This document shows positions 18,991-60,133 of a stretch of 64,000 nt of DNA, in pieces (position 1 is the stretch's first letter; each line of letters starts with the position of its first letter). The stretch comes from a virus, in IMG/VR virus record IMGVR_UViG_3300036781_000179, positions 1 to 64,000 of that record, one strand, 5' to 3'. The position numbers were made by a program, and so were the translations under genes. The notes beneath the pieces are model-generated. The model was not told the DNA's origin, did no database searches, and saw nothing but the letters and a program-made list of their open reading frames with translations.

Positions 18991-19095
18991 TATATTTGTT
19001 GTATAAAATCATCGTGCAGGATGGATTTAAAGACATTTTAATAGCCTTAGTTTCGGGGATAGCCTGCACGCTTGAACCGGGATTAAGGCTTTTTA
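18991..19095 (+). promoter_or_regulatory. Promoter plus two-hairpin leader with complementary loops, upstream of the HNH gene
   Basis: TATATTTG at 18991; CGTGCAGG (19013-19020) is complementary to CCTGCACG (19063-19070); stem AGCCTTAGTTTCGG/CCGGGATTAAGGCT followed by a T-run. Confidence 0.65.
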
Positions 19096-19102
19096 ATTTA
19101 TT

Positions 19103-40800: not shown

Positions 40801-41808
40801 GATGGAATAGAACCCATATCAGGTAAAATGAGTAAGTACTTTAGAAGTACTATTCAATTAGCCTATTCTCAAGGTAAGAAATTGGTAATGTACTATAACA
40901 TGTTCTATGATGAAGTTATGTTATGCATACAAGCACAGGGAGGGGTATTAACATTATTCCCTTTTAACGAAACCAATTGGCAACCATTTGATAACTATAA
41001 CATCACGTATTCTGATATAACCAATATTGCAGATGGAACACACTGTACTGCAACTGATAATGGTGATGGGACAGTTACTTATACTCCAACCACTAATTAT
41101 ATAGGTAACGATACAGCCACTTTTACATTTGATGTAGACGGGAATCCCATAACAAAGAACAATTGTTTACAATGGGTAGCAGCCGATGTAACTGTAAATC
41201 CTTTTTCATTCACTCCATTGATTGCGCAACCATTAAATACTTTGATAGAAAGCAATTCTATATTAGTAAGCGGGATTAATGTTCCTGTAGGTATTAGTAT
41301 TGTAGGAGGTGAATACAGTATCAATGGAGGTGCATATACAAGTACACCCGGAACTGTAGTGAATAATGACTCTGTGCAGATAAGGCAATTAAGTTCTAAT
41401 TTGTCTAACACTACAACAAGTGCTACACTGACCATTAGTGGCACAAGTGCGCAATTTGATGTAACGACCAAAGTTCCCGTACTGATTAATTACAGGGTTA
41501 CGTCACAAGTAACACCTTTTGCAGATGCGAATTTGAATATTAGGCAAAACGGAGTAACAGTGGCGACTATAAACGGGTCAGCAACAGGTTCGGTAAATGT
41601 ATTTGGAACAGACAGTATAGTGGTAGAAGCATATACTTTATTGCCATCAGCAGGTGTTTCGCCAAGTCTGATTATGACCAATAAAAAAGATGGAGTTAAC
41701 TTTTATAATAATGCCATAGCCAATGTAGTCAGTGCGAGTATGTCTAACAATTTTATAGCCATGAATCCATCAGTGTATTTGATTACAGTAGATGGAACAG
41801 CATCATAA
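37876..41808 (+). CDS. Tail stabilization/muzzle protein (N-terminal part) with C-terminal Ig-like domains
   Basis: N-terminal YLEAYNIRV; YGSIQVL, ESFCF...YFVD..R....RLG.DGIEPIS..MSKYFR; C-terminal VTYTPTTNYIGNDTATF (Ig/cadherin-like). Confidence 0.75.
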   Translation: MALFKDLKMFQQGGIDFDSAIEYISKNDYLEAYNIRVTGTQEGEQGYVTNIDSNEFVPGERAEGINKGIGGRSFEDTRQIVFFVYNSGGFHQIVTYSSDTQTQQVIYTDKTDSDGIPLLTLNPQYYVQCVLINGTYLVWADGISEVGYTNLQTLTSGGYGTVLAEDLSLIKPQCLIPIKGVYASDAGKASNFLKQKLYQFTVQYVNADFNYSTWATWSKRIIPAQESTPTEGASVSENNCIIVSVNIGSIRATQLNIACKYSDFDFNIIKTVDRSYIVALPNTIIDIANQVFESYNATTNEYSFVFYNQSLNIPVPPTETDQMVDYIWPSTAVEKINGNIIALADLKTGYERPVTSVNVSSSGYDPNLTVPTDTEPNPLKVSVVYAGGEGSGSNKFNRRMQINYSGVPHAGDILNVTTNSASDANDTSSYSYTVPFAQDGNLIAVTSSMSAILAGSFAASGGGYTITFYEDPRPHRRVQIASITLSNTGASISKSIHAILDNSSYQLALSYRDTYGRLFPLDTDNTYIISTQSFAQLNGLTPKISWLINTALAPVGAVDYQWLITKNTTTTNLLDVFGNILIYVGGWDAHSNSPGLTATIGNVGETYQITVPSIPSDNRNLGNGVQQFNTGDYVVCNGKGWDIVPKSFGDLTPNGNVMAIKINPLNLFNQRYTNSSTNSILTYDFSDGDRCTFHYYIDPATPSNKVYFNNPCVDVQVYGYDPTSFLLKIEKSAAIPPGFLDVKNVFIRLYSPNTQKSDSEVTTDNTTVWYEIGERFTITNGNHDTLSGDITDGDVYFKTRSYNGAVDPNVIYDILATDFNFSDFYASNFTSYGRPRTYYDVLEKTEQKATIITSQNYVLGSKKNGLNRFFPESQYGESDGQTSSSYGSIQVLWQRGDILIPFQELRVGYIPVNISILEDAIQQKQYAISEKLLNNIRYNQTGNIGIGLAKESFCFKDNNAYFVDPNRSEPMRLGLDGIEPISGKMSKYFRSTIQLAYSQGKKLVMYYNMFYDEVMLCIQAQGGVLTLFPFNETNWQPFDNYNITYSDITNIADGTHCTATDNGDGTVTYTPTTNYIGNDTATFTFDVDGNPITKNNCLQWVAADVTVNPFSFTPLIAQPLNTLIESNSILVSGINVPVGISIVGGEYSINGGAYTSTPGTVVNNDSVQIRQLSSNLSNTTTSATLTISGTSAQFDVTTKVPVLINYRVTSQVTPFADANLNIRQNGVTVATINGSATGSVNVFGTDSIVVEAYTLLPSAGVSPSLIMTNKKDGVNFYNNAIANVVSASMSNNFIAMNPSVYLITVDGTAS

Positions 41809-50384: not shown

Positions 50385-50846
50385 ATGGCAACCTATACCG
50401 GAGTAGTTACACAATCAGCAAATGGTCAGGTGTTAACCTATACAGATACTTCATCTAATGTAGGTACAGTTACATCCCGTATATTAAACATTTATGATAG
50501 TAATGAAGTGTTGGTTGATACGATTAACATGGGTGCAAGCCTTACAGCAACGTATAACATCACAACAGACGTGTATTTATCGTTTATAGAAACATTGGTT
50601 GATGATGGTGTAAACCATGAAATAACAGTAAACTACTTATCAACAATATTCTATGAAATAACATTTGCTCCATTAATAGCAGCACAGAATTGTGATACTG
50701 ATGTATTTGGGTTAATTTATAATTTAACAAGAGCATCGTTATTCAAAGAAAGTGCAGAAATATATGCTGAATTTGGAGTAGGTCAAAATGCTCAAGCAAA
50801 CATTACTCAAGCTAACTTTTATTTAGTGACACCTTATTACGCTTAA
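50385..50846 (+). CDS. Tail-associated structural protein (hub-like)
   Basis: Thr-rich beta N-terminus (LTYTDTS); position. Confidence 0.6.
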   Translation: MATYTGVVTQSANGQVLTYTDTSSNVGTVTSRILNIYDSNEVLVDTINMGASLTATYNITTDVYLSFIETLVDDGVNHEITVNYLSTIFYEITFAPLIAAQNCDTDVFGLIYNLTRASLFKESAEIYAEFGVGQNAQANITQANFYLVTPYYA

Positions 50847-50850
50847 TCAG

Positions 50851-51702
50851 ATGCCTACACCACAACAGGTTCAAACCACGATACAAAGTGCAAAGTACAA
50901 GTTAGCTACGTGGACACAAAAGAACTTGAACCTGATTTTAAACGGAGGCGTAGCCATTAATGAGCAACTGATTAATTATTTCAGGCTTAATTTACATGGT
51001 TTACAATACCAACAAAAGAGAGCCGATTACACCTCTAACACAACCATAATTATTTACAACAGGTTATTAGGGTTAATAGGTATAGATACCAATGTGTATT
51101 CACGTGACCCTGATTATCAAAATCCAACCAATCCTGTTGTGAATACTGTTACTGTAGTAGGATTCAACGATCAAAAATATGAATTTGATACCACAGTAAC
51201 CCCTGATAACCCACAATGGATATTAGCTAATTACCATGCCAATTATTACCCTTTATTTGGTAATAACCCTGATTTAGCTATTTATATAGAGGAAGGGGAC
51301 TTTGTAGGAGATGAGCAAACACCGCCTATCATAGAATATGCAGTTGATGGCAATGTAAATAGCGATATATTAAGTATCACTTATGATTTTCCTCCGGGTG
51401 TAGGAGCTAAAGGTTACGTAAGGATAGCAGGTAAAGCACCATCATCAGGGAATTCAGGATCATCAACTCCGGGAGGTGGAAATGCAAGCACATTAACATT
51501 TAACCAAAGCAATTTATTGGAAGATGGAACAGGTTCAGGAAACTGGTATTTACCATTGGTAATAGGTGTTAACCAGAACCCTATATTTACTACATCAAAC
51601 GGAGTGTCATTAAGTGCTACTTATGATAAAACCTTCTCTCCTAACAGATTGTACGGCTTCGCTAACAACGATACACAGGTAATAAAAGTAACCATTATAT
51701 AA
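50851..51702 (+). CDS. Tail-associated structural protein
   Basis: 283 aa, G/S linker, position. Confidence 0.6.
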   Translation: MPTPQQVQTTIQSAKYKLATWTQKNLNLILNGGVAINEQLINYFRLNLHGLQYQQKRADYTSNTTIIIYNRLLGLIGIDTNVYSRDPDYQNPTNPVVNTVTVVGFNDQKYEFDTTVTPDNPQWILANYHANYYPLFGNNPDLAIYIEEGDFVGDEQTPPIIEYAVDGNVNSDILSITYDFPPGVGAKGYVRIAGKAPSSGNSGSSTPGGGNASTLTFNQSNLLEDGTGSGNWYLPLVIGVNQNPIFTTSNGVSLSATYDKTFSPNRLYGFANNDTQVIKVTII

Positions 51703-52869
51703 ATGAAAAAACTATTTACAATATTATTGTTATTCATTAGTGTAACAAGTTATGCTCAATGGAGTAATGTAGGTACAGCGACTCTCCAAAGACAACCAAC
51801 AGCAAAGGGTTATTTTTACAGGGATAACATGGGGGCAAAGGGATTTGTAAATTGGTATAATGTTCCACAATTAGATAGTTTATTAAATATTAGGGCTATA
51901 AAAGATAGCACATTTAATATCAATAAAAATTTCTTTGATATACAAAATGCTTCCACAGCCCGTAACAACCTTGGTATCACAATCCTATTAGCAGGCAAAG
52001 TAGATACAGCAACATTAGCCAATTACGCTTTAGATAATACCGTATTACACAAGGTGAATAACCTTTCAGACGTGCCTAATAAACCATTAGCAAAAGTTAA
52101 TTTAGGCATATTTGAGTATTTAGGAGAATGGAATAGTGGTCAGGCGGCAGCAAGTTATTATAACCGTGTAGGTTGTTTAGTTTCTTACAATGGAGTACTT
52201 TACAGGATAGTATCCAATCCCGGAACAATAGCACCCCGAAATTGGGACCCATCACATTATGCAGTGGCAGATAACCCTATTGGTTTAAACATCTTAAAAA
52301 GTTTTGTATTAGCAGGTAATGATAGATACGACTTTTTAACCATGAGCAACCTGAGTACCCAACAGCTAACATTCCGGTTTAATATATTGGTGAGTGATGC
52401 ATTATCAGTGGATTCAACAACCGCAGTGGAAGTACAGGGATATGACTTTAATTTACAAAAAGTGTTTTTAATAACGCCTAATACATGGTTTCAATTAAAT
52501 CCTACGAGGTATAGCACGTTTAATAACACCTATGGAGATACTACGTCTGTAAAAAACAGGGTGATATTTATAGACTTTCAATTTGTGCCAACTGATCCAT
52601 TAGACCCAACAAAAGCAGGAACATTTAAATTCAGATATCGTGTAAACAACAGTTTAGGGTTGACCGGGAGTATTGCTATCAGGAATTACGCTGTAAGCAA
52701 TAGCGACTTGTTACCTATAGCTAACCAATACACGGGTGTAGATACCCCTGCTTTATACATGAACCAAGTTATCCAATTAGATAAAGGGTTGGTAATAGCA
52801 TCCCCTAATGGGACACAATATAAAATTACGGTATCCAACGGAGGTACATTAACCGTGACAGCATTATGA
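51703..52869 (+). CDS. Tail fibre-like protein with N-terminal Sec-type signal peptide
   Basis: MKKLFTILLLFISVTSYA|Q; fibre repeats 'DIQNASTARNNLG' and 'NNLSDVPNKPLAKVNLG'; C-terminal SPNGTQYKITVSNGGTL. Confidence 0.7.
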   Translation: MKKLFTILLLFISVTSYAQWSNVGTATLQRQPTAKGYFYRDNMGAKGFVNWYNVPQLDSLLNIRAIKDSTFNINKNFFDIQNASTARNNLGITILLAGKVDTATLANYALDNTVLHKVNNLSDVPNKPLAKVNLGIFEYLGEWNSGQAAASYYNRVGCLVSYNGVLYRIVSNPGTIAPRNWDPSHYAVADNPIGLNILKSFVLAGNDRYDFLTMSNLSTQQLTFRFNILVSDALSVDSTTAVEVQGYDFNLQKVFLITPNTWFQLNPTRYSTFNNTYGDTTSVKNRVIFIDFQFVPTDPLDPTKAGTFKFRYRVNNSLGLTGSIAIRNYAVSNSDLLPIANQYTGVDTPALYMNQVIQLDKGLVIASPNGTQYKITVSNGGTLTVTAL

Positions 52870-55800
52870 AAAAACTACTCTTAATACTTTGTTTATTTAC
52901 CTGTTTTAAAGCGTTTGGACAGACTCCAACACAACCAACACCTGTTAACCAAATGACGTGGTATAAAGACCTTGGAGGACACATGTGGGCTTACAGGGGG
53001 GCTACGTTAGGATGGATACAAATGGCAGATGCTTCACAGTTAAGTAATATAACATTTCTTCCAAAAGCCAATAGTGGCCTTCACATAACTGGAGATAGCA
53101 CTATCAGGTGGGGTGGTGAACTTTTAGAGGATATTGATATAATTGGTAACAATCATTATATACAACAAAATAATAGCTTTTCGTCTGATGAGATAAATTC
53201 ATTTTCAAGAACTCTTTTATTAAATAATGAAATAGGAGCGCCAAGTATTGGAACTTTTATAAGCTCCAATTACAATGATGGCATAGGAAATATATCTACG
53301 ACAGGAAGCCTTAACACATGGAATTTCGGATCACAATTATTGGCTGCGTATTCATCATCTACACCTAATATAAATAGCAGACAATCTGTTACTGTAGGTA
53401 AGATAGGAGGCGAGATGCCGGTATTATCGGGTAGTAAAATAGAAATATTTGATGGACTTAATTTAAAAGGGGCGCAATACGCTGCTGATTACTCTACGGT
53501 AGGTAAATTAGATGACCGTTGGATACCCGATTGGGGAGCAGTTAAATCAAGGGTTGATAGTTCAGGAAGTAACTATGTAAACTTAACCACCAATCAAACA
53601 GGTATAGGTGGTAATAAAACATGGACCGGAGATCATACTTGGCACATTACCGGGAATAATTCAACAATGCAAGTTAATCAGGATGGTTGGAATATAACTT
53701 CTACCGGCAGTCCTAATTTTTATGGTGCAAATATATCTGATGGGATATATGCGATAACCACTGATAAAGGAGCAAACCTGTTCCCTTATGATTTATCCTT
53801 TAATAGAGATAGTTTTACGGTCCATTTAACAGGACCGGCTTCTATTTCAACAAGCAGCAAGGTTCAAACCTTACAAGATAAGGCAGGCACAATAGCCTTA
53901 TTAAGTGATGTTGTAGGGGTAGACAGCACAACAATAGCTAATACCTATGCTACAAAAATACACGTTGATAGCGTTTCAGCAGCCACAACCCAAAATCAGA
54001 TATTGCTTTATGATAAATCATTTTATACCTCATTAACAGATTTTGTAAAGGCAGGTACATTCACTCCATCATTAACCACTGATTTTGGAATTTTAATGAC
54101 AGGGGGCGTAAGTGGAACGGATACTACGAATTATATCCGGTTAAAAGGATTCACTAATAATGATGATCTATTAAATCTTGAAGTAACTTTTATTGTAAAT
54201 GATTTAACAGGATTTGGTATTGGCGTAGGTAGAAAACATACAAGCCCATCATCTGATTATAGTTGCTTTGGAAGCTATGACTTAGTTAATAACACTGTTT
54301 TTGTAAAGAGTTTTGGTGTAAGTAGAAGCGCACCTTCAGGCATTACTGTTGCGGTAAATGATATATGCAAGATAATATTCAGGATACGGGGTAACATGCT
54401 GATAACTGACTTTTATGACTTAACCCAAAATAAATATGCTACAGTGTCCGGAGTTAATAATTTGCTCAATACCGGTAATATTGTTATTACAGAACATGGA
54501 GGGTCAGTAACTATAAAGGGCTTTAAAGCATATAGTTCATCTCCACGAAGCCCTGATTTAGCCATTTTAAGTGATAGTAAGTTACGTAACCCAATAAACG
54601 GGTTGGCATTTGGCAACTGGGATAACACATTTGGCATTACAGCGACTTTTGCAGGACAGGGCGACCAAGTTACACAGTTGCTTCAAGGGTTGCCATATGT
54701 GCTTAAATATATCAAACCAAAACAGGTTATTGTAAATATAGGCCGTAACAACTTACAGCCAGGAGGTGTGATGCCAGACAGTGTTAAAACACAATATGCC
54801 ACGCTGGTTCATAAATTAGATAGCGCGGGTATTAATGCAGGATATTTCAGGGCTATACCCGAAACAGTTAATCCGGATCAAACCGGATTGAATCATTTAG
54901 TAGATAGTTTAGTGCCATCAAGAACTATCGACGTATCACCTTATTGGACTAATGCCATTGATTTGGCAGGGGATGGCATACATCCTAATGAAGCAGGAGC
55001 GAGGTTATTAACTTGGGTATCGCAAAGAACAGGTTATTTTGATACTACAAAAGTTTACTCACAGCCACAAGCATTAACCGAACAGAACTATGCGAAATAT
55101 AATCAGAATAATAATTTCAACATTAATCAGGTTGTAAATGGTTTGGTATTAGGCACGGCCAATTCGTCATATACCGGAATTGAATCATCTGTAATTACTG
55201 TACCATTGGCTGTCGGTGGAGCATTTCCTTATACAAATTCCAATAACTTAGTTTTATCATCATCGGGGGCAGCAGGAAAGCAAATTGTTTTTAAGACTAA
55301 CAATACGGTCAGGGCATACATTGATGGATCGGGTAACATGACGGTAGGTAAAACAGATGGAACAGTAGCGGTAACAGGGGCTAAATTTAGTGTATCAGGA
55401 AACTTCGGAACCACGGGAGCTAATACATTAGGGGGGCTAAGTTCAACAGGGGGTATAGTATATACATCATCAGCGGCAGGGTTATTGGCACAGGTTGCAG
55501 CAGTGGCAACAGGGAACGTTTTATTATCAGGAGGTCTAAGTACCGCACCTGCATATGGTAAAGTCAGTTCAGCTCATATTGATGCCTCTGTGGCTCCTAC
55601 AGCAAGTCCTACATTCACAGGAACACCAACACTGCCAACCGGTACAATAGGGGTAACACAAACAGCAGGTAATAGTACTACAGCAGTAGCCACTACAGCC
55701 TTTGTAACAACCGCAGATAACTTAAAGGCCAATATAGCCTCTCCAACATTTACAGGTGTTCCTGCCGCTCCTACACCTGCTTCAAACGTAAATACAACAC

Positions 55801-56390
55801 AGATACCCACAACAGCATGGGTAAATACGTATTACGGAGCATTAGCAGGAACACAAAACTGGTCAGGAACTAATACTTTTGGATTAGAGGTAACGGGGCT
55901 TAGTGGTTTTATCACAAGGAGCAATAACCCGGTACAATTTTATGGTACGGGGAATACGTTTTTTGGCAATTTATTTCCAAATACTTTAACAGGGAATCAA
56001 AACTGGAATTTACCTAATAATTCAGGTACGCTCGCTTTGACAAGTGATGTTAATTCTCCTATAGTGGGAACGCCAACAATATCAGCAGGGGCAGGCGCCG
56101 GAACATCACCTACAGTTAGCGTTACAAGCAACGGAAAGGGATTACAAGTAACTGTAACGACAGGAACTATACCTACAGGAACAAATGCAACTGTAGCTAC
56201 CATTACACTTCCAAATACCCTACCATATACGCCGTATCCTGTATTTTCGCCAGCCGGAGCAAATTCTGCTCTTTTGAATGGAGCAAGTATGATATACATG
56301 ACAAGTTCAAGTGGCACAAATATTACAATCACATCAGGCACAACCGCTCTGGTAGCAGCCACTACTTATACATGGAACATTTCTTTGTAA
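52866..56390 (+). CDS. Tail fibre/tailspike with SGNH-hydrolase (esterase) domain and N-terminal signal peptide
   Basis: MKKLLLILCLFTCFKAFG|Q; SGNH blocks ILSDS, GQG, IGRNN, DGIHPN; fibre repeats ASPTFTGTPT/ASPTFTGVPAAPT, ATTAFV. Confidence 0.78.
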   Translation: MKKLLLILCLFTCFKAFGQTPTQPTPVNQMTWYKDLGGHMWAYRGATLGWIQMADASQLSNITFLPKANSGLHITGDSTIRWGGELLEDIDIIGNNHYIQQNNSFSSDEINSFSRTLLLNNEIGAPSIGTFISSNYNDGIGNISTTGSLNTWNFGSQLLAAYSSSTPNINSRQSVTVGKIGGEMPVLSGSKIEIFDGLNLKGAQYAADYSTVGKLDDRWIPDWGAVKSRVDSSGSNYVNLTTNQTGIGGNKTWTGDHTWHITGNNSTMQVNQDGWNITSTGSPNFYGANISDGIYAITTDKGANLFPYDLSFNRDSFTVHLTGPASISTSSKVQTLQDKAGTIALLSDVVGVDSTTIANTYATKIHVDSVSAATTQNQILLYDKSFYTSLTDFVKAGTFTPSLTTDFGILMTGGVSGTDTTNYIRLKGFTNNDDLLNLEVTFIVNDLTGFGIGVGRKHTSPSSDYSCFGSYDLVNNTVFVKSFGVSRSAPSGITVAVNDICKIIFRIRGNMLITDFYDLTQNKYATVSGVNNLLNTGNIVITEHGGSVTIKGFKAYSSSPRSPDLAILSDSKLRNPINGLAFGNWDNTFGITATFAGQGDQVTQLLQGLPYVLKYIKPKQVIVNIGRNNLQPGGVMPDSVKTQYATLVHKLDSAGINAGYFRAIPETVNPDQTGLNHLVDSLVPSRTIDVSPYWTNAIDLAGDGIHPNEAGARLLTWVSQRTGYFDTTKVYSQPQALTEQNYAKYNQNNNFNINQVVNGLVLGTANSSYTGIESSVITVPLAVGGAFPYTNSNNLVLSSSGAAGKQIVFKTNNTVRAYIDGSGNMTVGKTDGTVAVTGAKFSVSGNFGTTGANTLGGLSSTGGIVYTSSAAGLLAQVAAVATGNVLLSGGLSTAPAYGKVSSAHIDASVAPTASPTFTGTPTLPTGTIGVTQTAGNSTTAVATTAFVTTADNLKANIASPTFTGVPAAPTPASNVNTTQIPTTAWVNTYYGALAGTQNWSGTNTFGLEVTGLSGFITRSNNPVQFYGTGNTFFGNLFPNTLTGNQNWNLPNNSGTLALTSDVNSPIVGTPTISAGAGAGTSPTVSVTSNGKGLQVTVTTGTIPTGTNATVATITLPNTLPYTPYPVFSPAGANSALLNGASMIYMTSSSGTNITITSGTTALVAATTYTWNISL

Positions 56391-57231: not shown

Positions 57232-57321
57232 ATGACTGAATTAGCACAGTACGGCATATTAGGAATAATCATAGGAGGACTGTTATTATTATGGTCACTC
57301 CTATTAGCGGTTAAAGGATGA
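57232..57321 (+). CDS. 29-aa single-TM micro-protein (holin-like)
   Basis: MTELAQYGILGIIIGGLLLLWSLLLAVKG*; stop overlaps the endolysin ATG (ATGA). Confidence 0.55.
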   Translation: MTELAQYGILGIIIGGLLLLWSLLLAVKG

Positions 57322-57845
57322 ATGAGACTAATTTATTTAATGCATTACGAGGCATCACAAGTGATAAACGATTGTCACAAGTACAAGTAGATAGCGTGAA
57401 TGCTATTTTAGAGGCTTGTGTTAAATACCACGTTACAGAACAACGTCAAATAGCTTACATATTGGCAACGGCATTTCATGAAAGCAGATTAAAGCCAATT
57501 GAAGAAATAGGCCATGGTGCAGGCCATCCATACGGCAAGTTTATCAACGGGCATGTTTATTACGGTCGAGGCTTTGTCCAATTGACATGGAAGGATAATT
57601 ATGCAACATTTAGTAAAAGATTAAACATAGACCTTGTAAATAGGCCAGAACTGGCTTTAAACATTGAGTATGCCGCAGATATTTTGGTATTAGGTATGAG
57701 GGATGCTATGTTTACAGGAGTAGGATTATCTAAGTATCTATCAGAAACTAAAAATGATCCGTTAAATGCGAGGCGAATAGTAAACGGGATTGACTGTGCA
57801 GCCTTAATAAGAGGATATTATCAACATATTTTAAGTTCATTATAA
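57318..57845 (+). CDS. Endolysin, glycoside hydrolase family 19-like
   Basis: AYILATAFHES..PIEE.G...YYGRGFVQLTWKDNY...ARRIVNG. Confidence 0.9.
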   Translation: MNETNLFNALRGITSDKRLSQVQVDSVNAILEACVKYHVTEQRQIAYILATAFHESRLKPIEEIGHGAGHPYGKFINGHVYYGRGFVQLTWKDNYATFSKRLNIDLVNRPELALNIEYAADILVLGMRDAMFTGVGLSKYLSETKNDPLNARRIVNGIDCAALIRGYYQHILSSL

Positions 57846-58108
57846 TGGAAGATCACAAAGAGATTATTAAACTTTATTTTGCATCAGGCGTGTGTTTATG
57901 CGGATTAATACTGTTATCACTTTTGGTATGGTTACCTGTACCTCACGAGAATCAGCCTATGGCAAATTTAGCAATGGGTGCTGTTATAACATCAATCATT
58001 GGTGTACCTATTGCATTTGTGTTAGGAGGTAATCCAACAAAAAAACCGGGAGAGAACCCAACTGTTAACAATGCAGACACAGTTAATGTGAACCAAAAAC
58101 CTGAATGA
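57845..58108 (+). CDS. Two-TM holin-like protein
   Basis: Two hydrophobic helices flanking VPHENQ; follows the endolysin. Confidence 0.65.
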   Translation: MEDHKEIIKLYFASGVCLCGLILLSLLVWLPVPHENQPMANLAMGAVITSIIGVPIAFVLGGNPTKKPGENPTVNNADTVNVNQKPE

Positions 58109-58287
58109 TTGCTTTAGCCTTTATCATAGGTCTTATCATGGGACACGTTACTAAAGCCCATTTATACAGGTTTGTAGTGGATAAGTTCATTGAGCAAAGG
58201 AAACGCAGGGAACAGGAATTTGAGTGCCTTATAGGGGCTAAAAACGAGGTTATAAAGGAATTAGAAAAAAATAAAATTGCAGATTAA
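58105..58287 (+). CDS. Small membrane-anchored coiled-coil protein
   Basis: MIALAFIIGLIMG followed by a coiled coil. Confidence 0.5.
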   Translation: MIALAFIIGLIMGHVTKAHLYRFVVDKFIEQRKRREQEFECLIGAKNEVIKELEKNKIAD

Positions 58288-58306
58288 AATAATTTACGTA
58301 TCATTG
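58277..58306 (+). promoter_or_regulatory. Promoter of the tRNA operon leader (TTG...TATCATTG), leaderless
   Basis: TTG at 58277-58279; TATCATTG at 58299-58306 (one mismatch to TAnnTTTG), ending 4 nt before ATG 58311, the same spacing as at 9974 and 13170. Confidence 0.6.
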
Positions 58307-58310
58307 TACT

Positions 58311-58367
58311 ATGATTAAAACAACAACATATAGTAATTCGGATTGGTCTTTGACCGATGCAGGATAA
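58311..58367 (+). CDS. Attenuator leader peptide MIKTTTYSNSDWSLTDAG
   Basis: ATG ATT AAA ACA ACA ACA TAT AGT AAT TCG GAT TGG TCT TTG ACC GAT GCA GGA TAA; codons 4-13 are all cognate to the downstream tRNAs. Confidence 0.8.
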   Translation: MIKTTTYSNSDWSLTDAG

Positions 58368-58425
58368 CTATATGTTAAAATACATAAGAAAACCCTGCAT
58401 AGAAATATGTGGGGTTTTCTGTTTT
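58325..58425 (+). terminator. Transcription attenuator (1:2 protector, 2:3 antiterminator, 3:4 terminator)
   Basis: AACATATAGT(58325-34)/ACTATATGTT(58367-76); ATGCAGG(58357-63)/CCTGCAT(58394-400); AGAAAACCCTGCAT(58387-400)/ATGTGGGGTTTTCT(58407-20) followed by GTTTT. Confidence 0.8.
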
Positions 58426-58428
58426 AAA

Positions 58429-58463
58429 TACGTCTACTCAAAGGAGCGATAAGCAGTCTCCAA
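58429..58463 (+). pseudogene. Probable 5'-half remnant of a tRNA-Trp, ending at the anticodon loop
   Basis: ...ACTCAAAGGAGCGATAAGCAGTCTCCAA ends in CTCCAA, as in the intact tRNA-Trp anticodon loop; followed by the inverted copy TTGGAGACT. Confidence 0.45.
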
Positions 58464-58500
58464 TATTATTTATTTGGAGACTAATTTGTATATTTGCTGA

Positions 58501-58917
58501 ATGAAATGCACAAAATGTTTAGAAGAAAAATCAGAATTTGATTTCGTATTTAAAAATAAAGTAGCTAATAAAAGACACACAGTATGCGGCGTTTGTCAAA
58601 GGGAATATAAAAAGAAACATTATTATGAAAATAAACCAGCACATTATGCGCGAAATATTAAAACAAGGATAGAAATAAAAAAAATTTATGACGAAGTTAA
58701 GGATAACGCTGTATGTATAATTTGTGGTGAAAACGAAAGGTGTTGTATAGATTTTCACCATTTAGACCCAAGTAAAAAAGAGTTTAATGTGGGTAGGTTA
58801 ACAACTTATGGATCAAAAATTAAACTTATTAACGAGTTTGAAAAATGTGTACCTCTTTGTGCTAATTGCCATAGAAAACTACATGCAGGAGTAATAGAAT
58901 TAAATATCGGTGTGTAA
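58501..58917 (+). CDS. HNH endonuclease at the head of the tRNA array
   Basis: CTKC..CGVC Zn finger; CIICGE...IDFHHLDP..K.F...CVPLCANCHRKLH; own TATATTTG box at 58489. Confidence 0.88.
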   Translation: MKCTKCLEEKSEFDFVFKNKVANKRHTVCGVCQREYKKKHYYENKPAHYARNIKTRIEIKKIYDEVKDNAVCIICGENERCCIDFHHLDPSKKEFNVGRLTTYGSKIKLINEFEKCVPLCANCHRKLHAGVIELNIGV

Positions 58918-58992
58918 TCAAGTGGTCGAAGATATTGGTCTCCAAAACCAACGGTTTAAAAACCCTCGACAGTTCGAATCTGTCCACATCTG
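58908..58992 (+). tRNA. tRNA-Trp (CCA) with long variable arm
   Basis: Anticodon arm TTGGT-CTCCAAA-ACCAA; T-arm GACAG-TTCGAAT-CTGTC; acceptor CGGTGTG/CACATCT; variable arm GGTT-TAAA-AACC. Confidence 0.85.
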
Positions 58993-58997
58993 CAAAA

Positions 58998-59069
58998 GGG
59001 TAAGTAGCACAGAGGTAGTGCAAATGACTGTTAATCATTAGGTCACAGGTTCGAATCCTTTCTTGCCCT
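58998..59069 (+). tRNA. tRNA-Asn (GTT)
   Basis: GGGTAAG/CTTGCCC acceptor; AATGA-CTGTTAA-TCATT; GGTTCGAATCC. Confidence 0.9.
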
Positions 59070-59073
59070 CATT

Positions 59074-59146
59074 GCATCCTTAGTTCAATTGGTAGAACGG
59101 CTGCCTTGTAAGCAGTTGGTTGGCGGTTCGATTCCGTCAGGATGCT
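59074..59146 (+). tRNA. tRNA-Thr (TGT)
   Basis: GCATCCT/AGGATGC; GCTGC-CTTGTAA-GCAGT; GGCGG-TTCGATT-CCGTC. Confidence 0.93.
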
Positions 59147-59150
59147 CAAA

Positions 59151-59223
59151 CGTTTCGGCGCATAACGGCTGTTGCGCCTCACTGTCTATGAGGATTTAGA
59201 GGGTTCGACTCCCTTCGGGACGA
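59151..59223 (+). tRNA. tRNA-Asp (GTC)
   Basis: CGTTTCG/CGGGACG; CCTCA-CTGTCTA-TGAGG; GAGGG-TTCGACT-CCCTT. Confidence 0.85.
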
Positions 59224-59228
59224 CAAAT

Positions 59229-59311
59229 AGTAGATTAGCCAAGCGGTACGGCAACTCACTGCTAATGAGTAACACTTTCGGGTGTCGTTGGTTCGAATCC
59301 AACATCTACTA
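59229..59311 (+). tRNA. tRNA-Ser (GCT)
   Basis: AGTAGAT/ATCTACT; ACTCA-CTGCTAA-TGAGT; long variable arm ACACT-TTCG-GGTGT; GTTGG-TTCGAAT-CCAAC. Confidence 0.92.
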
Positions 59312-59317
59312 CTTAAT

Positions 59318-59404
59318 AGAGGTTCGTATGGTTGGCGTACTTATCTGTCTTGAAAACAGTGATGGGTTTAAAAGCCCGTGCAGGTTCGATCCCTGTAGCC
59401 TCTT
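59318..59404 (+). tRNA. tRNA-Ser (TGA)
   Basis: AGAGGTT/AGCCTCT; CTGT-CTTGAAA-ACAG; variable arm GGGTT-TAAA-AGCCC; GCAGG-TTCGATC-CCTGT. Confidence 0.87.
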
Positions 59405-59410
59405 CTTAAT

Positions 59411-59494
59411 CCTTTAGCGACAACGTGGGAGTGTTGTGACTGTCTGTAAAACAGTTGGTGTAAACCTTAGTAAGTTCGAATCTTACCTATTGGA
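59411..59494 (+). tRNA. tRNA-Tyr (GTA)
   Basis: ACTGT-CTGTAAA-ACAGT; variable arm GG(T)-GTAA-ACC; GTAAG-TTCGAAT-CTTAC; acceptor CCTTTAG/CTATTGG has two U-U mismatches. Confidence 0.8.
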
Positions 59495-59505
59495 CATTCA
59501 ATTAG

Positions 59506-59543
59506 AAAGCCGACACTGAATTGTACAGATGTCGGCTCATTTT
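59506..59543. terminator. Terminator closing the tRNA array (convergent with the spanin gene)
   Basis: AAAGCCGACA-CTGAATTGTACAGA-TGTCGGCTCATTTT. Confidence 0.7.
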
Positions 59544-59569
59544 CTGAAATATGCTGTGTTAGCCACTCA

Positions 59570-60133
59570 TTAAACTTTAGGTTTTTTACTTCTCAAATAA
59601 ATAACAACCACAATCAACACTACAAACACTAATATTGATATACCTATCCACTTGGCATAAGTTGTACCACTGCCTATTGCTGATGAGTTCTTGGTTTTCC
59701 CGGTACTATCCTTTTTAACTGTGGTATTGGAATCAGTTTTAGTTGTCAATACTCCTGTAGTAAAGGTAGTAACCCCTGATTGTCTACTTACGTTGCCATT
59801 GGTCTTAACGTTACTTGAATCCGAAACCTGATAATGGATTACCTTTCCTTTAGTAGGATATATAACAGTTTTAGTTCCCTGTGAGTTCTTGGTTTGAACA
59901 ATACTATCCACTTCTAACGTAGCATCCCTTGACGACCCTGTTTTAGCCTCTGTGGTTGATGATTTTGTTGATTTGGATGTATCTACCGATTGCGTGTGTA
60001 AACTGTCTGTAGTGGTCTTATTTACAGCCACAGTTGATGACTGTGATACACTTGATGTTTGGGTTGCTACCTTACGTGTCTTGCAAGCGCAAAACAGGGT
60101 GAGTATGGTACATAATGAGATAAAAGTTTTCAT
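59570..60133 (-). CDS. Putative unimolecular spanin (lipoprotein with C-terminal TM helix)
   Basis: N-terminal lipobox LFCA|C followed by KTRK; S/T-rich extended middle; C-terminal WIGISILVFVVLIVVVIYL and basic tail. Confidence 0.75.
   Translation of the reverse strand: MKTFISLCTILTLFCACKTRKVATQTSSVSQSSTVAVNKTTTDSLHTQSVDTSKSTKSSTTEAKTGSSRDATLEVDSIVQTKNSQGTKTVIYPTKGKVIHYQVSDSSNVKTNGNVSRQSGVTTFTTGVLTTKTDSNTTVKKDSTGKTKNSSAIGSGTTYAKWIGISILVFVVLIVVVIYLRSKKPKV

What the first reader, a model, noticed from the sequence alone, without database searches (positions are those of the whole stretch)
58277..59494. Codon-matched leader-peptide attenuator controlling a phage tRNA array: a candidate sensor of host tRNA depletion
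Seen in sequence: a Bacteroidota-type promoter sits 4 nt before an unannotated 18-codon ORF (58311-58367). Its ten consecutive codons 4-13 are ACA ACA ACA (Thr), TAT (Tyr), AGT (Ser), AAT (Asn), TCG (Ser), GAT (Asp), TGG (Trp) and TCT (Ser). The downstream array encodes exactly Thr-UGU, Tyr-GUA, Ser-GCU, Asn-GUU, Ser-UGA, Asp-GUC and Trp-CCA. Every tRNA, including both Ser isoacceptor boxes, has a cognate codon in the block, and no other amino acid interrupts it (TCT needs extended wobble of UGA). The ORF overlaps mutually exclusive helices: 1:2 AACATATAGT/ACTATATGTT; 2:3 antiterminator ATGCAGG/CCTGCAT with inner TATGT/ACATA; and 3:4, a 14-bp terminator AGAAAACCCTGCAT/ATGTGGGGTTTTCT followed by GTTTT. 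Established knowledge: this is the geometry of trp/his/thr attenuators, where stalling on control codons frees segment 2 to block the terminator and full translation to the stop allows termination. Host defences such as PrrC, PARIS and retron Ec78 PtuAB cleave tRNAs, and phage T5 tRNAs can rescue infection. Inference: the phage uses one leader as a multiplex OR-gate. If any of the seven host tRNAs is cleaved or uncharged, the ribosome stalls and replacement tRNAs are transcribed. I know of no description of attenuator-controlled phage tRNA arrays, but I could not search the literature.
Basis: partly seen in the sequence, partly recalled or inferred. Interest (0 to 1): 0.95.

Follow-up and report, generated by a model that had tools for sequence, protein, structure and literature searches.

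The report
Leader-peptide attenuator before phage tRNAs
A soil phage places its seven tRNA genes behind a tiny test gene spelled in the codons those tRNAs read and wired to a switchable transcription stop, a design also present in cultured Flavobacteriia phages, so it probably makes extra tRNAs only when ribosomes read those codons slowly.

Summary
ORF 58311-58367 (MIKTTTYSNSDWSLTDAG), hairpin 58325-58376, alternative helix 58357-58363/58394-58400 and terminator 58387-58420 are all there. All seven tRNAs are real; Asp-GUC is found only by Rfam or relaxed ARAGORN.

The codon match is not chance. The only 10-codon windows in the 73-kb genome (146,510 windows, six frames) that cover all seven tRNAs lie in this ORF. 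None of 2.1 million windows in other phage DNA reaches the same mark.

No close relative could be fetched. I did find the same cassette in cultured Bacteroidota phages: Cellulophaga phages Calle_1 and phi4:1, Maribacter phage Panino and Tenacibaculum phage Gundel_1. It consists of a -7 box, 4 nt, ATG, a short ORF whose residues equal the next tRNA block, and a terminator. The window's leader aligns with the Tyr/Ser-type leaders and differs exactly where the arrays differ.

Caveats: an HNH gene with its own consensus promoter lies between terminator and array, and nothing is shown experimentally. The defence-sensor trigger is untested.

This scan flagged the same class before on other phage DNA. 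I found no published account.

The parts
58299..58306 (+). -7 box TATCATTG, one mismatch to the Bacteroidota TAnnTTTG, ending 4 nt before the leader ATG; a weak -33-like ATTG lies at 58276-58279
   Evidence: A -7 box ends 4 nt before the ATG in 6 of 8 cassettes compared, and in Gundel_1. phi4:1 has the same TAnnATTG variant at this offset.
58311..58367 (+). Leader ORF, 18 codons, MIKTTTYSNSDWSLTDAG, stop TAA 58365-58367
   Evidence: Aligns with the leaders of phi4:1 (21 of 26 nt, p 0.004), Calle_1 block B (p 0.002) and Gundel_1 (p 0.001).
58320..58349 (+). Control codons ACA ACA ACA TAT AGT AAT TCG GAT TGG TCT; every one of the 7 tRNAs has a cognate codon here
58325..58376 (+). Hairpin 1:2 (5' arm is the control codons; 3' arm holds the antiterminator strand and the stop codon), -22.4 kcal/mol
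   Evidence: The CATATAG / CTAT(A/T)TG arms are conserved in Gundel_1.
58357..58363 (+). Antiterminator strand ATGCAGG, lying in the last sense codons GAT GCA GGA; pairs with 58394-58400
   Evidence: shuffle p 0.008; z -4.93. The GCAGGATAACTAT block is identical in Gundel_1.
58387..58431 (+). Intrinsic terminator: 15-bp stem-loop 58387-58420 (GC core 58393-58414) with U-tract TTTTCTGTTTT; CCTGCAT 58394-58400 is the strand shared with the antiterminator
58455..58482 (+). 9-bp hairpin AGTCTCCAA / TTGGAGACT between the terminator and the HNH promoter; role unknown
   Evidence: z -2.83. The tRNA-remnant reading is not above shuffles.
58489..58496 (+). Consensus -7 box TATATTTG, 4 nt before the HNH ATG; a second promoter that bypasses the terminator
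58501..58917 (+). HNH endonuclease gene (138 aa) of a family that lives inside phage tRNA arrays; its end overlaps tRNA-Trp by 10 nt
   Evidence: phrog_2255, 2e-29; 42 of 80 homologous loci carry tRNAs within 3 kb, often abutting the ORF.
58908..58992 (+). tRNA-Trp (CCA) with a long variable arm
   Evidence: 47.3 bits.
58998..59069 (+). tRNA-Asn (GUU)
59074..59146 (+). tRNA-Thr (UGU)
59151..59223 (+). tRNA-Asp (GUC), atypical (U at position 37)
   Evidence: (38.1 bits). Missed by default ARAGORN.
59229..59311 (+). tRNA-Ser (GCU)
59318..59404 (+). tRNA-Ser (UGA)
59411..59495 (+). tRNA-Tyr (GUA)
59502..59547 (+). Terminator-like hairpin closing the array, ahead of the convergent minus-strand genes
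   Evidence: -19 kcal/mol, z -4.38.

Best explanation
Positions 58299-58431 are a ribosome-mediated (leader-peptide) transcription attenuator belonging to a tRNA-gene cassette.

How it would work:
- Transcripts start at the near-consensus -7 box as leaderless mRNA, or arrive from the lysis genes upstream.
- A ribosome translates the 18-codon ORF.
- If it reads codons 4-12 quickly and reaches the stop at 58365, it sits on ATGCAGG (58357-58363). The terminator 58387-58420 then folds and transcription ends.
- If it stalls on any Thr, Tyr, Ser (both boxes), Asn, Asp or Trp codon, the 5' arm of hairpin 1:2 is covered. ATGCAGG is free to pair with CCTGCAT in the terminator's 5' arm, and the polymerase runs on into the HNH gene and the seven tRNA genes.
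- The tRNAs made then speed up decoding of the leader and shut the switch. This is negative feedback on tRNA supply.

Shown: the sequence parts, their energies, the statistical excess of the codon match, homology to cassettes in cultured Bacteroidota phages, and leader composition that changes with array composition.

Inferred: translation of the ORF, stalling, termination and read-through.

The likeliest everyday trigger is demand from the late tail-fibre genes, which are richest in these codons. Shortage caused by host anticodon nucleases would act through the same switch.

The HNH gene is a later insertion with its own promoter, so the attenuator now sets only part of the array's transcription.
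For: 1. Anatomy and energies.

2. Codon match:
- longest cognate run in the genome;
- only place in 146,510 windows that covers all 7 tRNAs;
- expectation 0.006 per genome;
- 0 of 2,100,442 windows in other phage DNA;
- run score 3.2, against 0 of 344 mismatched controls reaching 3.

3. Same cassette in cultured phages. In each, the run in the small ORF equals the amino-acid set of the next tRNA block:
- Calle_1: three cassettes with runs of 9, 16 and 14 residues and coverage 8/8, 6/6 and 6/6.
- Panino: two cassettes. phi4:1: three cassettes.
- Gundel_1: YSYSCFSSWF precedes Tyr, Trp, Phe, Ser, Cys, Ser. I read the Tyr and Cys anticodons only after the leader had predicted them.
- Each leader scored against another block's set gives runs of 1-5.

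4. Co-variation in the Tyr/Ser-type cassette across 4 phages and 8 amino acids: 31 of 32 presence/absence cells agree. The window has no Phe or Cys tRNAs and no F or C in its leader. It has Thr and Asp tRNAs and T and D in its leader. Gundel_1 has no Asn tRNA in the block and no N in the run.

5. DNA homology: the window leader aligns with phi4:1, Calle_1 block B and Gundel_1 (p 0.004, 0.002, 0.001) but not with the four leaders of other block types (p 0.08-0.92). ACCGA(T)GCAGGATAACTAT...CCTGC is conserved with Gundel_1, although the portal proteins of the two phages are only 23% identical.

6. Antiterminator as a class feature: helices between the ORF's 3' part and the terminator's 5' arm have shuffle p of 0.008, 0.16, 0.008, 0.66, 0.042, 0.15, 0.078 and 0.11 in 8 cassettes. 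The truncated-transcript fold pairs the 5' arm with an ORF segment in 5 of 5 cassettes tested.

7. A sample picked without regard to leader composition: 81 IMG/VR matches to the -7 box plus ATGAAAACA. All 12 that are followed by tRNAs within 350 nt have ORFs of 32 aa or fewer, against 8 of 69 others at 45 aa or fewer (Fisher p 1.8e-9). They include LYLSLSYSLLS before Tyr, Leu, Ser, Ser, Leu.

8. Codons read by the 7 tRNAs make up 35-39% of the tail-fibre-like late ORFs, against a genome mean of 30%.
Against: - A perfect -7 box (58489-58496), 4 nt before the HNH ATG, lies downstream of the terminator, so the array can be transcribed without passing the attenuator.
- In all the cultured-phage cassettes the terminator abuts the first tRNA. 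Here 482 nt, including the HNH gene, lie between them.
- The -7 box of the leader has one mismatch.
- No close relative of this phage could be examined, so conservation within its own lineage is untested. The closest fetched relatives (endolysin at most 61% identical) have no tRNAs beside the endolysin, and the one examined in detail (L004) ends the lysis operon with a plain terminator.
- In 28 tRNA arrays carrying the same HNH family, 151 inter-block gaps showed no own-versus-other signal, and only 1 of 95 gaps reached run score 3. The design is therefore not general among phage arrays.
- Rfam's leader families are matched only below threshold: Thr_leader 28.3 bits against a cut-off of 55.
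- In Calle_1 block C, 3-4 of 14 run codons are not read by the block's own Leu or Arg tRNA, so the match is partly at amino-acid level (my reading of the and 54 outputs).
- No expression, termination or ribosome data exist.
- Coupling of transcription and translation in Bacteroidota is assumed, not shown.
Confidence: 0.72

Rival explanations
1. Relic attenuator. The cassette is homologous to working ones, but in this phage the HNH insertion with its own promoter has uncoupled it from the array. The terminator now mainly ends the late/lysis operon and the leader is decaying.
For: - HNH promoter downstream of the terminator.
- 482 nt between terminator and first tRNA, against a few nt elsewhere.
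- One-mismatch -7 box.
- The syntenic relative L004 ends its lysis operon with a plain terminator about 40 nt after the last gene.
Against: - The leader matches the present array exactly, including Thr and Asp and the absence of Phe and Cys. This argues for recent selection.
- ORF, stop position, antiterminator and terminator are all intact.
- Read-through transcripts would still add to tRNA output.
Confidence: 0.13
2. Counter-defence sensor. The switch exists mainly to detect cleavage of host tRNAs by anticodon nucleases and to replace them with phage copies.
For: - It uses the same mechanism as the best explanation.
- Three of the seven tRNAs (Tyr, Asn, Asp) have G34-U35 anticodons. Two have unusual bodies or loops: Trp with a long variable arm, Asp with U37.
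- Papers seen as search listings and abstracts report phage tRNAs that escape tRNA-targeting defences (PMC10264068, PMC11555353, PMC11464382).
Against: - No defence system or nuclease is tied to this phage or its unknown host.
- The tRNA set follows the codon use of the phage's own late tail-fibre genes.
- In the cultured phages, cassettes of this kind cover nearly all amino acids, which looks like general supply control.
Confidence: 0.2
3. Chance ORF lying in front of an ordinary late-operon terminator and an mRNA-stabilising hairpin.
For: - The terminator sits 100 nt after the last lysis gene with no other terminator in between.
- The finding was made post hoc.
Against: -: unique in 146,510 windows.
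- 0 of 2.1 million windows.
- significant alignment to the Tyr/Ser-type leaders only.
- conserved block shared with Gundel_1.
Confidence: 0.03
4. The small ORF or its transcript acts in another way: as a small protein, as a trans-acting RNA released at the terminator, or by controlling processing or stability of the tRNA precursor rather than termination.
For: - Attenuator RNAs can act in trans in other bacteria (PMC6614838, abstract seen in the listing).
- The phage has other promoter-plus-terminator leaders ahead of other HNH genes.
Against: - A peptide whose composition follows the neighbouring tRNA set has no obvious protein function.
- The terminator/antiterminator overlap recurs across cassettes.
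Confidence: 0.05

Closest known systems
Multivalent leader-peptide attenuators of enterobacterial amino-acid operons (thr leader with Thr + Ile; ilvGMEDA leader with Ile/Leu/Val) and the trp attenuator (recalled from textbooks; Rfam Thr_leader tested)
   Same: Short ORF with a run of regulatory codons for several amino acids; 1:2, 2:3 and 3:4 helices; a stop codon placed so that a terminating ribosome masks segment 2. Energies resemble those I recall for the trp attenuator (here -22.4, -13.3 and -21.0 kcal/mol).
   Different: - The regulated genes are tRNA genes, not biosynthetic enzymes.
- Six amino acids and seven anticodons are sensed at once.
- The mRNA is probably leaderless, from a Bacteroidota -7 box.
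- It is carried by a phage.
- It is not a sequence member: Thr_leader scores 28.3 bits against a cut-off of 55.
Unpublished cassettes found here in Cellulophaga phages Calle_1 (MT732432.1) and phi4:1_13 (KT962245.1), Maribacter phage Panino (PP540027.1) and Tenacibaculum phage Gundel_1 (NC_062747.1)
   Same: A -7 box, 4 nt, ATG; an MK(T)-type start; a run equal to the block's amino-acid set; the antiterminator in the ORF's 3' part; a strong terminator. DNA homology to the Tyr/Ser-type leaders.
   Different: - A single cassette rather than two or three.
- The array has Thr and Asp in place of Phe and Cys.
- The start is MIK rather than MKT.
- An HNH gene with its own promoter separates terminator and array.
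- The source is soil, not the sea.
T-box riboswitches
   Same: They sense the supply of a particular charged tRNA and switch a terminator/antiterminator pair.
   Different: T-boxes bind the uncharged tRNA directly, need no translation, sense one tRNA, and control synthetase or amino-acid genes. No T-box match appeared in the region at E up to 1.
Inducible long tRNA operon of Anabaena sp. PCC 7120 (PMC8421152, PMC10272220; abstracts seen in the listing)
   Same: An extra, horizontally spread set of tRNA genes that is silent by default and switched on when translation is impaired.
   Different: There the control is by a protein repressor (TrcR), according to the abstract. No leader peptide or attenuator is mentioned in what I saw.
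pheST (pheM leader) attenuation of a synthetase operon in E. coli (recalled, not checked here)
   Same: Leader-peptide attenuation applied to a gene of the translation apparatus rather than to a biosynthetic operon.
   Different: It has one amino acid and a protein-coding target, and it is chromosomal.

Membership tests
Ribosome-mediated (leader-peptide) transcription attenuators | Short translatable ORF at the 5' end of the transcript, upstream of the regulated genes | tested here: met
   18-codon ORF 58311-58367, with its ATG 4 nt after a -7-like box. This is the same geometry as 5 other genes of the phage and 6 of 8 cassettes. Translation itself is not shown.
Ribosome-mediated (leader-peptide) transcription attenuators | Run of regulatory codons cognate to what the operon supplies | tested here: met
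   10 consecutive codons covering all 7 tRNAs: unique in 146,510 windows, and 0 of 2,100,442 control windows.
Ribosome-mediated (leader-peptide) transcription attenuators | Intrinsic terminator between the leader ORF and the regulated genes | tested here: met
   15-bp stem 58387-58420 plus U-tract. Termination in vivo is not shown.
Ribosome-mediated (leader-peptide) transcription attenuators | Mutually exclusive antiterminator whose formation depends on ribosome position; the stop codon lets a terminating ribosome mask it | tested here: met
   ATGCAGG 58357-58363 pairs with CCTGCAT 58394-58400: -13.3 kcal/mol, z -4.93. The stop at 58365 is 2 nt after the strand. In silico only.
Ribosome-mediated (leader-peptide) transcription attenuators | Regulated genes encode amino-acid biosynthesis (or synthetase) proteins | tested here: not met
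   Downstream lie an HNH endonuclease gene and seven tRNA genes.
Ribosome-mediated (leader-peptide) transcription attenuators | Read-through rises when the regulatory codons are decoded slowly | not testable with these tools
   No RNA run holds the sequence. Needs reporters, Term-seq or Ribo-seq.
Rfam Thr_leader (RF00506) / trpB motif (RF04312) | Score at or above the curated gathering threshold | tested here: not met
   Thr_leader 28.3 bits against 55; trpB 31.5 against 59.
T-box riboswitch | Match to the T-box covariance model (specifier loop, T-box sequence) | tested here: not met
   No T-box hit at E up to 1 in 57500-60000.
tRNA-block cassettes of Bacteroidota phages (class defined here and in earlier notes of this scan) | Leader run drawn from, and covering, the amino-acid set of the following tRNA block, and not that of other blocks | tested here: met
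   Own set: run of 10, coverage 6/6. Other block sets: runs of 1-5.
tRNA-block cassettes of Bacteroidota phages (class defined here and in earlier notes of this scan) | Sequence homology of the leader and antiterminator region to other members | tested here: met
   p 0.004, 0.002 and 0.001 against phi4:1, Calle_1 block B and Gundel_1. Conserved block ACCGA(T)GCAGGATAACTAT.
tRNA-block cassettes of Bacteroidota phages (class defined here and in earlier notes of this scan) | Terminator directly abuts the first tRNA of the block | tested here: not met
   482 nt lie between them, holding a hairpin, a second promoter and the HNH gene. In the 7 cultured-phage cassettes the tRNA starts within about 10-110 nt of the terminator.

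The most novel reading that the evidence does not exclude
The cassette is one member of a widespread, rewritable decoding-speed sensor. Each time a Bacteroidota phage gains or loses tRNA genes, the leader is re-spelled to match.

In this phage the seven-input OR-gate would serve as a counter-defence trigger. Cleavage or depletion of any one host tRNA (Thr, Tyr, Ser x2, Asn, Asp, Trp) by an anticodon nuclease would stall the leader ribosome and release nuclease-resistant phage replacements.

The leaders would then also be a direct read-out of which tRNAs a phage array really supplies. That includes tRNAs that gene finders miss, as shown here for Tyr and Cys in Gundel_1.
Probability: 0.22. Interest if true: 0.95.

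Novelty: new variant of a known kind. Interest (0 to 1): 0.85.

Why it matters
Ribosome-mediated attenuation is a textbook mechanism, but in everything I could search it controls amino-acid or synthetase genes, not tRNA genes.

If this reading is right:
- Phages measure decoding speed codon by codon and set their own tRNA supply by feedback. That bears on the long-standing question of what phage tRNAs are for.
- The class is present in cultured, published phage-host pairs: Cellulophaga with phi38:1, Calle and phi4:1; Tenacibaculum with Gundel; Maribacter with Panino. The idea can therefore be tested at the bench now, and infection RNA-seq already exists for phi38:1 (PMC5335546).
- The leaders have practical use. 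They predicted two non-canonical tRNAs that ARAGORN missed.
- They offer compact, multiplexed sensors of tRNA availability for Bacteroidota synthetic biology.

Tried and rejected
**Search for close relatives of this locus**
- INPHARED blastn matched tRNA genes only; 0 records covered 80% of the query.
- IMG/VR scanned with the endolysin alone: 0 relatives.
- IMG/VR scanned with an alignment of 30 endolysins: 80 loci, best 60% identity. I ran ARAGORN on 60 of the 80. One (L023) had tRNAs, and they lay upstream of the endolysin.
- A whole-record tRNA search of 5 of those records found one tRNA in one record.
- Exact and codon-degenerate DNA patterns of the control block: 0 hits each.
- JGI metagenomes with the same alignment: 53 loci, 0 tRNAs, no leader-like match.
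- The best protein relatives (P0002 89%, P0005 73%) could not be fetched.
- Sequencing runs: one DNA run, probably the source; no RNA holder listed.
- Laying that run's contigs gave 11 partial pieces. Most were other organisms' tRNA genes. One 151-nt contig matched 58327-58371 with 3 differences. I could not read it further.

**Readings rejected**
- A 5' tRNA-Trp remnant at 58426-58500: alignment scores to all 7 tRNAs equal the shuffled mean, and Rfam finds no tRNA there.
- The design is not general to phage arrays. In 28 arrays carrying the same HNH family, 151 gaps gave own median 0.43 against other 0.42. By run score, 1 of 95 own gaps and 0 of 344 controls reached 3.

**Searches that gave nothing useful**
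- Pattern ACCGAN{0,1}GCAGGATAACTAT in IMG/VR: 3 hits. Two are chance matches inside GC-rich coding sequence without tRNAs; one is the Gundel_1 genome.
- His_leader searched as a control for attenuators in Bacteroidota: it rings in E. coli and C. glutamicum only, so it says nothing about Bacteroidota.

**Limits of my analyses**
- In one search, block sets called by ARAGORN are incomplete for several loci (L246, L253), so their own-run values are underestimates. I kept them in the means.
- In the co-variation table I counted only residues inside the longest run and dropped residues outside it.

**Literature**
- Searches found no account of leader-peptide control of tRNA genes.
- By term search, PMC8776804 has 'leader' 0 times and 'attenuat' 0 times, and says only that Calle has 20 tRNAs and Gundel ten.
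- PMC5335546 has 'leader' 0 times.
- Supplements were not opened and might hold annotations of the small ORFs.
- Subscription journals are not in the library.
- Vitreschak et al. 2004, on attenuators outside proteobacteria, is recalled and was not seen.

Full report
**What is there**

The window is 64 kb of a 73,284-bp virus record from a soil metagenome, with 35.5% G+C.

Around the finding the plus strand carries, in order:
- a tail-fibre-like gene, 52866-56390;
- small genes;
- a GH19 endolysin, 57318-57845;
- two small ORFs ending at 58287;
- the element under study, 58299-58431;
- an HNH endonuclease gene, 58501-58917;
- seven tRNA genes, 58908-59495;
- a closing hairpin, 59502-59547;
- convergent minus-strand genes.

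The portal protein (29414-31888) has relatives only among Bacteroidota phages in the cultured-phage collection: Panino 27%, Callevirus 24%, and Flavobacterium and Tenacibaculum phages (87 of 87 records). The endolysin's named relatives are from Mucilaginibacter and Sphingobacteriales. The host is therefore very probably a Bacteroidota bacterium.

**The observation**

- The ORF runs from ATG 58311 to TAA 58365-58367 and reads MIKTTTYSNSDWSLTDAG.
- Default ARAGORN finds six tRNAs.
- The seventh, Asp-GUC at 59151-59223, is called by Rfam at 38.1 bits and by ARAGORN at relaxed threshold.
- The leader region 58300-58435 folds at -47.4 kcal/mol, z -7.26, with 0 of 200 shuffles as stable.
- That fold has a 1:2 hairpin (58325-58376, -22.4 kcal/mol) and a 15-bp terminator (58387-58420, -21.0 kcal/mol) followed by a U-tract.
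- If the transcript is cut before the terminator's 3' arm, the minimum-energy fold pairs ATGCAGG (58357-58363) with CCTGCAT (58394-58400): -13.3 kcal/mol, z -4.93.
- The stop codon lies 2 nt after ATGCAGG, so a terminating ribosome would cover that strand. A ribosome held on codons 4-12 would leave it free.
- The promoter is a one-mismatch -7 box (TATCATTG) ending 4 nt before the ATG. This phage has TAnnTTTG 4-6 nt before the ATG at five genes, including the HNH gene, which points to leaderless transcripts.

**Is the codon match chance?**

- The run of cognate codons (9 by strict wobble, 10 if UGA also reads TCT) is the longest in all six frames of the genome.
- Of 146,510 ten-codon windows, the only ones that contain a codon for each of the seven tRNAs are the 4 (strict) or 5 (extended) overlapping windows in this ORF.
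- With the genome's own codon frequencies, 0.006 windows per genome are expected to have 10 cognate codons and all 7 classes.
- In 1.05 Mb of other phage loci, 0 of 2,100,442 windows have at least 9 cognate codons and all 7 classes.

**Relatives of this phage**

I could not obtain any close relative.

- The IMG/VR and JGI relatives I could fetch share at most 61% endolysin identity. None has tRNAs downstream of the endolysin. The one examined in detail (L004) ends its lysis operon with a plain terminator.
- One 151-nt contig in the probable source run matches 58327-58371 with three differences.

**The same design in cultured phages**

A weak tRNA match led me to Cellulophaga phage Calle_1, which at 73 kb is about the size of this phage. 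Its 23 tRNAs fall into three blocks. Each block is preceded by a repeated promoter, a small ORF and a terminator.

| Calle_1 leader | tRNA block that follows | Match |
|---|---|---|
| MKTIMNIATDIRTKGVKLLGRSRVL | Lys Ile Gly Met Asp Thr Val Arg Ile | covers all 8 amino acids of the block |
| MKTNMTYNNFSWYSNCSFSSYNVERLYLS | Tyr Ser Ser Asn Trp Phe Cys | 16-residue run made of exactly the block's six amino acids |
| MNARLLHQEPLEQLRLPSRVSYHGIDELS | Pro Glu Gln His Gln Leu Arg | 14-residue run made of exactly the block's six amino acids |

Maribacter phage Panino and Cellulophaga phage phi4:1 show the same pattern:
- MKTQRLHQELEQP... and MKIQRLHLQELEQP... precede Pro Glu Gln His Leu Leu Arg.
- MRAATGIAIIGRTKDK... 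and a TKTGITVIDKTKGARA run precede the Ala/Lys/Ile/Gly/Asp/Thr/Val blocks.
- MKTNYCTYNNSNWSFSY... precedes Tyr Ser Ser Asn Trp Phe Cys.

In Tenacibaculum phage Gundel_1 the leader MKTKLYSYSCFSSWFKNRAG precedes a block in which ARAGORN called only Trp, Phe, Ser and Ser. The leader predicted Tyr and Cys as well. The two further Rfam tRNA matches in the block do have GUA and GCA in their anticodon loops.

In a matrix of leaders against block sets, each leader's longest run is with its own set (9-16 residues; full coverage in 7 of 8). Against other sets the runs are 1-5, and up to 10 between near-identical sets.

**Homology and co-variation**

The window's leader aligns significantly with the Tyr/Ser-type leaders:
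- phi4:1: 21 of 26 nt, p 0.004;
- Calle_1 block B: p 0.002;
- Gundel_1: p 0.001.

It does not align with the four leaders of other block types (p 0.08-0.92).

With Gundel_1 it shares several blocks, although the two phages' portal proteins are only 23% identical:
- the -7 box region;
- CATATAG (the Tyr-Ser codons, which form the 5' arm of hairpin 1:2);
- TTGGT (the Trp codon);
- GCAGGATAACTAT (antiterminator, stop codon and 3' arm);
- the CCTGC core of the terminator.

In phi4:1, ACAGGATC pairs with GATCCTGT at the homologous position.

Between these conserved blocks the control codons differ as the arrays differ.

| Phage | tRNA block | Leader run |
|---|---|---|
| Window | Trp Asn Thr Asp Ser Ser Tyr | TTTYSNSDWS |
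| Calle_1 | Tyr Ser Ser Asn Trp Phe Cys | YNNFSWYSNCSFSSYN |
| phi4:1 | Tyr Ser Ser Asn Trp Phe Cys | NYCTYNNSNWSFSY |
| Gundel_1 | Tyr Trp Phe Ser Cys Ser | YSYSCFSSWF |

Over eight amino acids and four phages, 31 of 32 presence/absence cells agree. The exception is one Thr in the phi4:1 run.

**Class features of the switch**

- A -7 box ends exactly 4 nt before the ATG in 6 of 8 cassettes, and in Gundel_1.
- Every cassette has a strong terminator before the first tRNA.
- A helix between the ORF's 3' part and the terminator's 5' arm is better than shuffles, with p of 0.008, 0.16, 0.008, 0.66, 0.042, 0.15, 0.078 and 0.11. My Fisher combination of these gives about 2e-4; I worked that out by hand, not in a call.
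- In 5 of 5 cassettes tested, the truncated-transcript fold pairs the terminator's 5' arm with an ORF segment.

A sample chosen without regard to leader content gave the same picture. I scanned IMG/VR for the -7 box plus ATGAAAACA and got 81 matches.
- All 12 matches followed by tRNAs within 350 nt have ORFs of 32 aa or fewer.
- Of the other 69, 8 have ORFs of 45 aa or fewer (Fisher p 1.8e-9).
- The 12 include a new block type: LYLSLSYSLLS before Tyr, Leu, Ser, Ser, Leu.

**Results that cut the other way**

- The HNH gene has a perfect -7 box of its own, downstream of the terminator. The array is therefore not under the attenuator's sole control.
- This HNH family lives inside tRNA arrays. 42 of 80 homologous loci have tRNAs within 3 kb, often abutting the ORF. 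I read it as a later insertion between the terminator and the first tRNA, but I could not show the empty site.
- In 28 arrays that carry this HNH family there is no leader-block signal. The design is restricted, so far, to Bacteroidota-type phages.
- Rfam's leader families are matched only below threshold.
- The match is partly at amino-acid level in one Calle_1 cassette.
- There are no expression data.

**Mechanism and role**

I commit to a trp-type attenuator working as a seven-input OR-gate with negative feedback through the tRNAs it releases (confidence 0.72).

On the trigger:
- Codons read by the seven tRNAs make up 35-39% of the tail-fibre-like late ORFs (37876-41808, 50385-56390). The genome mean is 30%, and the replication-side genes range from 21% to 33%.
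- The cassette sits at the end of that late operon.
- Demand-driven supply is therefore the simplest reading.

**Novelty**

Nine full-text searches found no account of leader-peptide control of tRNA genes. The two phage papers I searched by term do not mention the small ORFs in their main text. Their supplements were not opened.

The nearest thing in print that I saw is the inducible Anabaena tRNA operon, which a repressor controls (abstracts).

Earlier notes of this scan report the same class in at least eight other phage genomes. They are AI notes on DNA I did not see. My evidence for the class rests on the four named GenBank phages and the IMG/VR sample above.

Noticed in passing
window 58908-58992: The CCA-anticodon tRNA has a 14-nt variable region, as class II tRNAs (Ser, Leu, Tyr) do. 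This is unusual for tRNA-Trp. It scores 47.3 bits in Rfam. In phi4:1, the tRNA-Asn (L218 6930-7015) likewise has a long variable arm.
   Followed up: partly
window 58501-58917; loci L083-L162: This HNH family is an array-resident gene. In 42 of 80 homologous IMG/VR loci, tRNAs lie within 3 kb on the same strand. In the closest ones (L083-L085) the ORF starts right after tRNA-Trp, and in L083 it ends overlapping the next tRNA, as it does here.
   Followed up: partly
L216 (MT732432.1): The tRNA coordinates in the annotation table are 52 nt lower than the positions found by Rfam and ARAGORN. Tyr, Cys, Glu and Ile-UAU tRNAs are not annotated, and the 'undetermined' one reads as Gln-UUG by ARAGORN.
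   Followed up: partly
L220 1352-1420 and 1673-1746 (NC_062747.1); L218 7385-7458: Non-canonical tRNAs whose anticodon stems hold mismatches: Tyr-GUA and Cys-GCA in Gundel_1, and Cys-GCA in phi4:1 (annotated there as a pseudo-tRNA). Default gene finders miss them, but the leaders predict them.
   Followed up: yes
window 18991-19102; genome 64478-64604 (minus strand, beyond the window): Two other HNH genes of this phage are each preceded by a consensus TATATTTG box and then a strong terminator-like hairpin. Neither has an obvious codon-matched ORF. They may be a different promoter-proximal terminator control for endonuclease genes.
   Followed up: partly
window 9974, 11497, 13170, 41817, 58489: TAnnTTTG boxes end 4-6 nt before the ATG of five genes, which suggests leaderless mRNAs are common in this phage. 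In IMG/VR, 61 of 81 matches to the box plus ATGAAAACA head ordinary genes of more than 45 aa.
   Followed up: partly
L216 1895-2041 and L217 5269-5418: A conserved 48-49-aa hydrophobic ORF ending ...EEKTGKDI sits just upstream of the Lys/Ile/Gly cassette in both Calle_1 and Panino.
   Followed up: no
L135 about 5473: An IMG/VR array from the HNH set has LSLSLLSL before a Ser-Leu-Leu block (run score 3.3). It also has a QSYFQSYF-containing ORF before Ser-Phe-Gln. These are possible further members outside the cultured phages.
   Followed up: no
L224 7525-7596 (Gundel_1): A second promoter-plus-MKT mini-ORF, MKTNNLHIQQNNLPVFLEGFLYM, lies about 630 nt before the Pro Gln Met Asn Leu block. N, L, Q and P match. 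H and I have no called tRNA, and the gap may hold undetected tRNAs.
   Followed up: no
window 58327-58371: A 151-nt low-depth contig in the probable source run matches this stretch (the hairpin 1:2 core) with 3 differences, and its flanks do not align. This hints at a diverged relative in the same sample.
   Followed up: no
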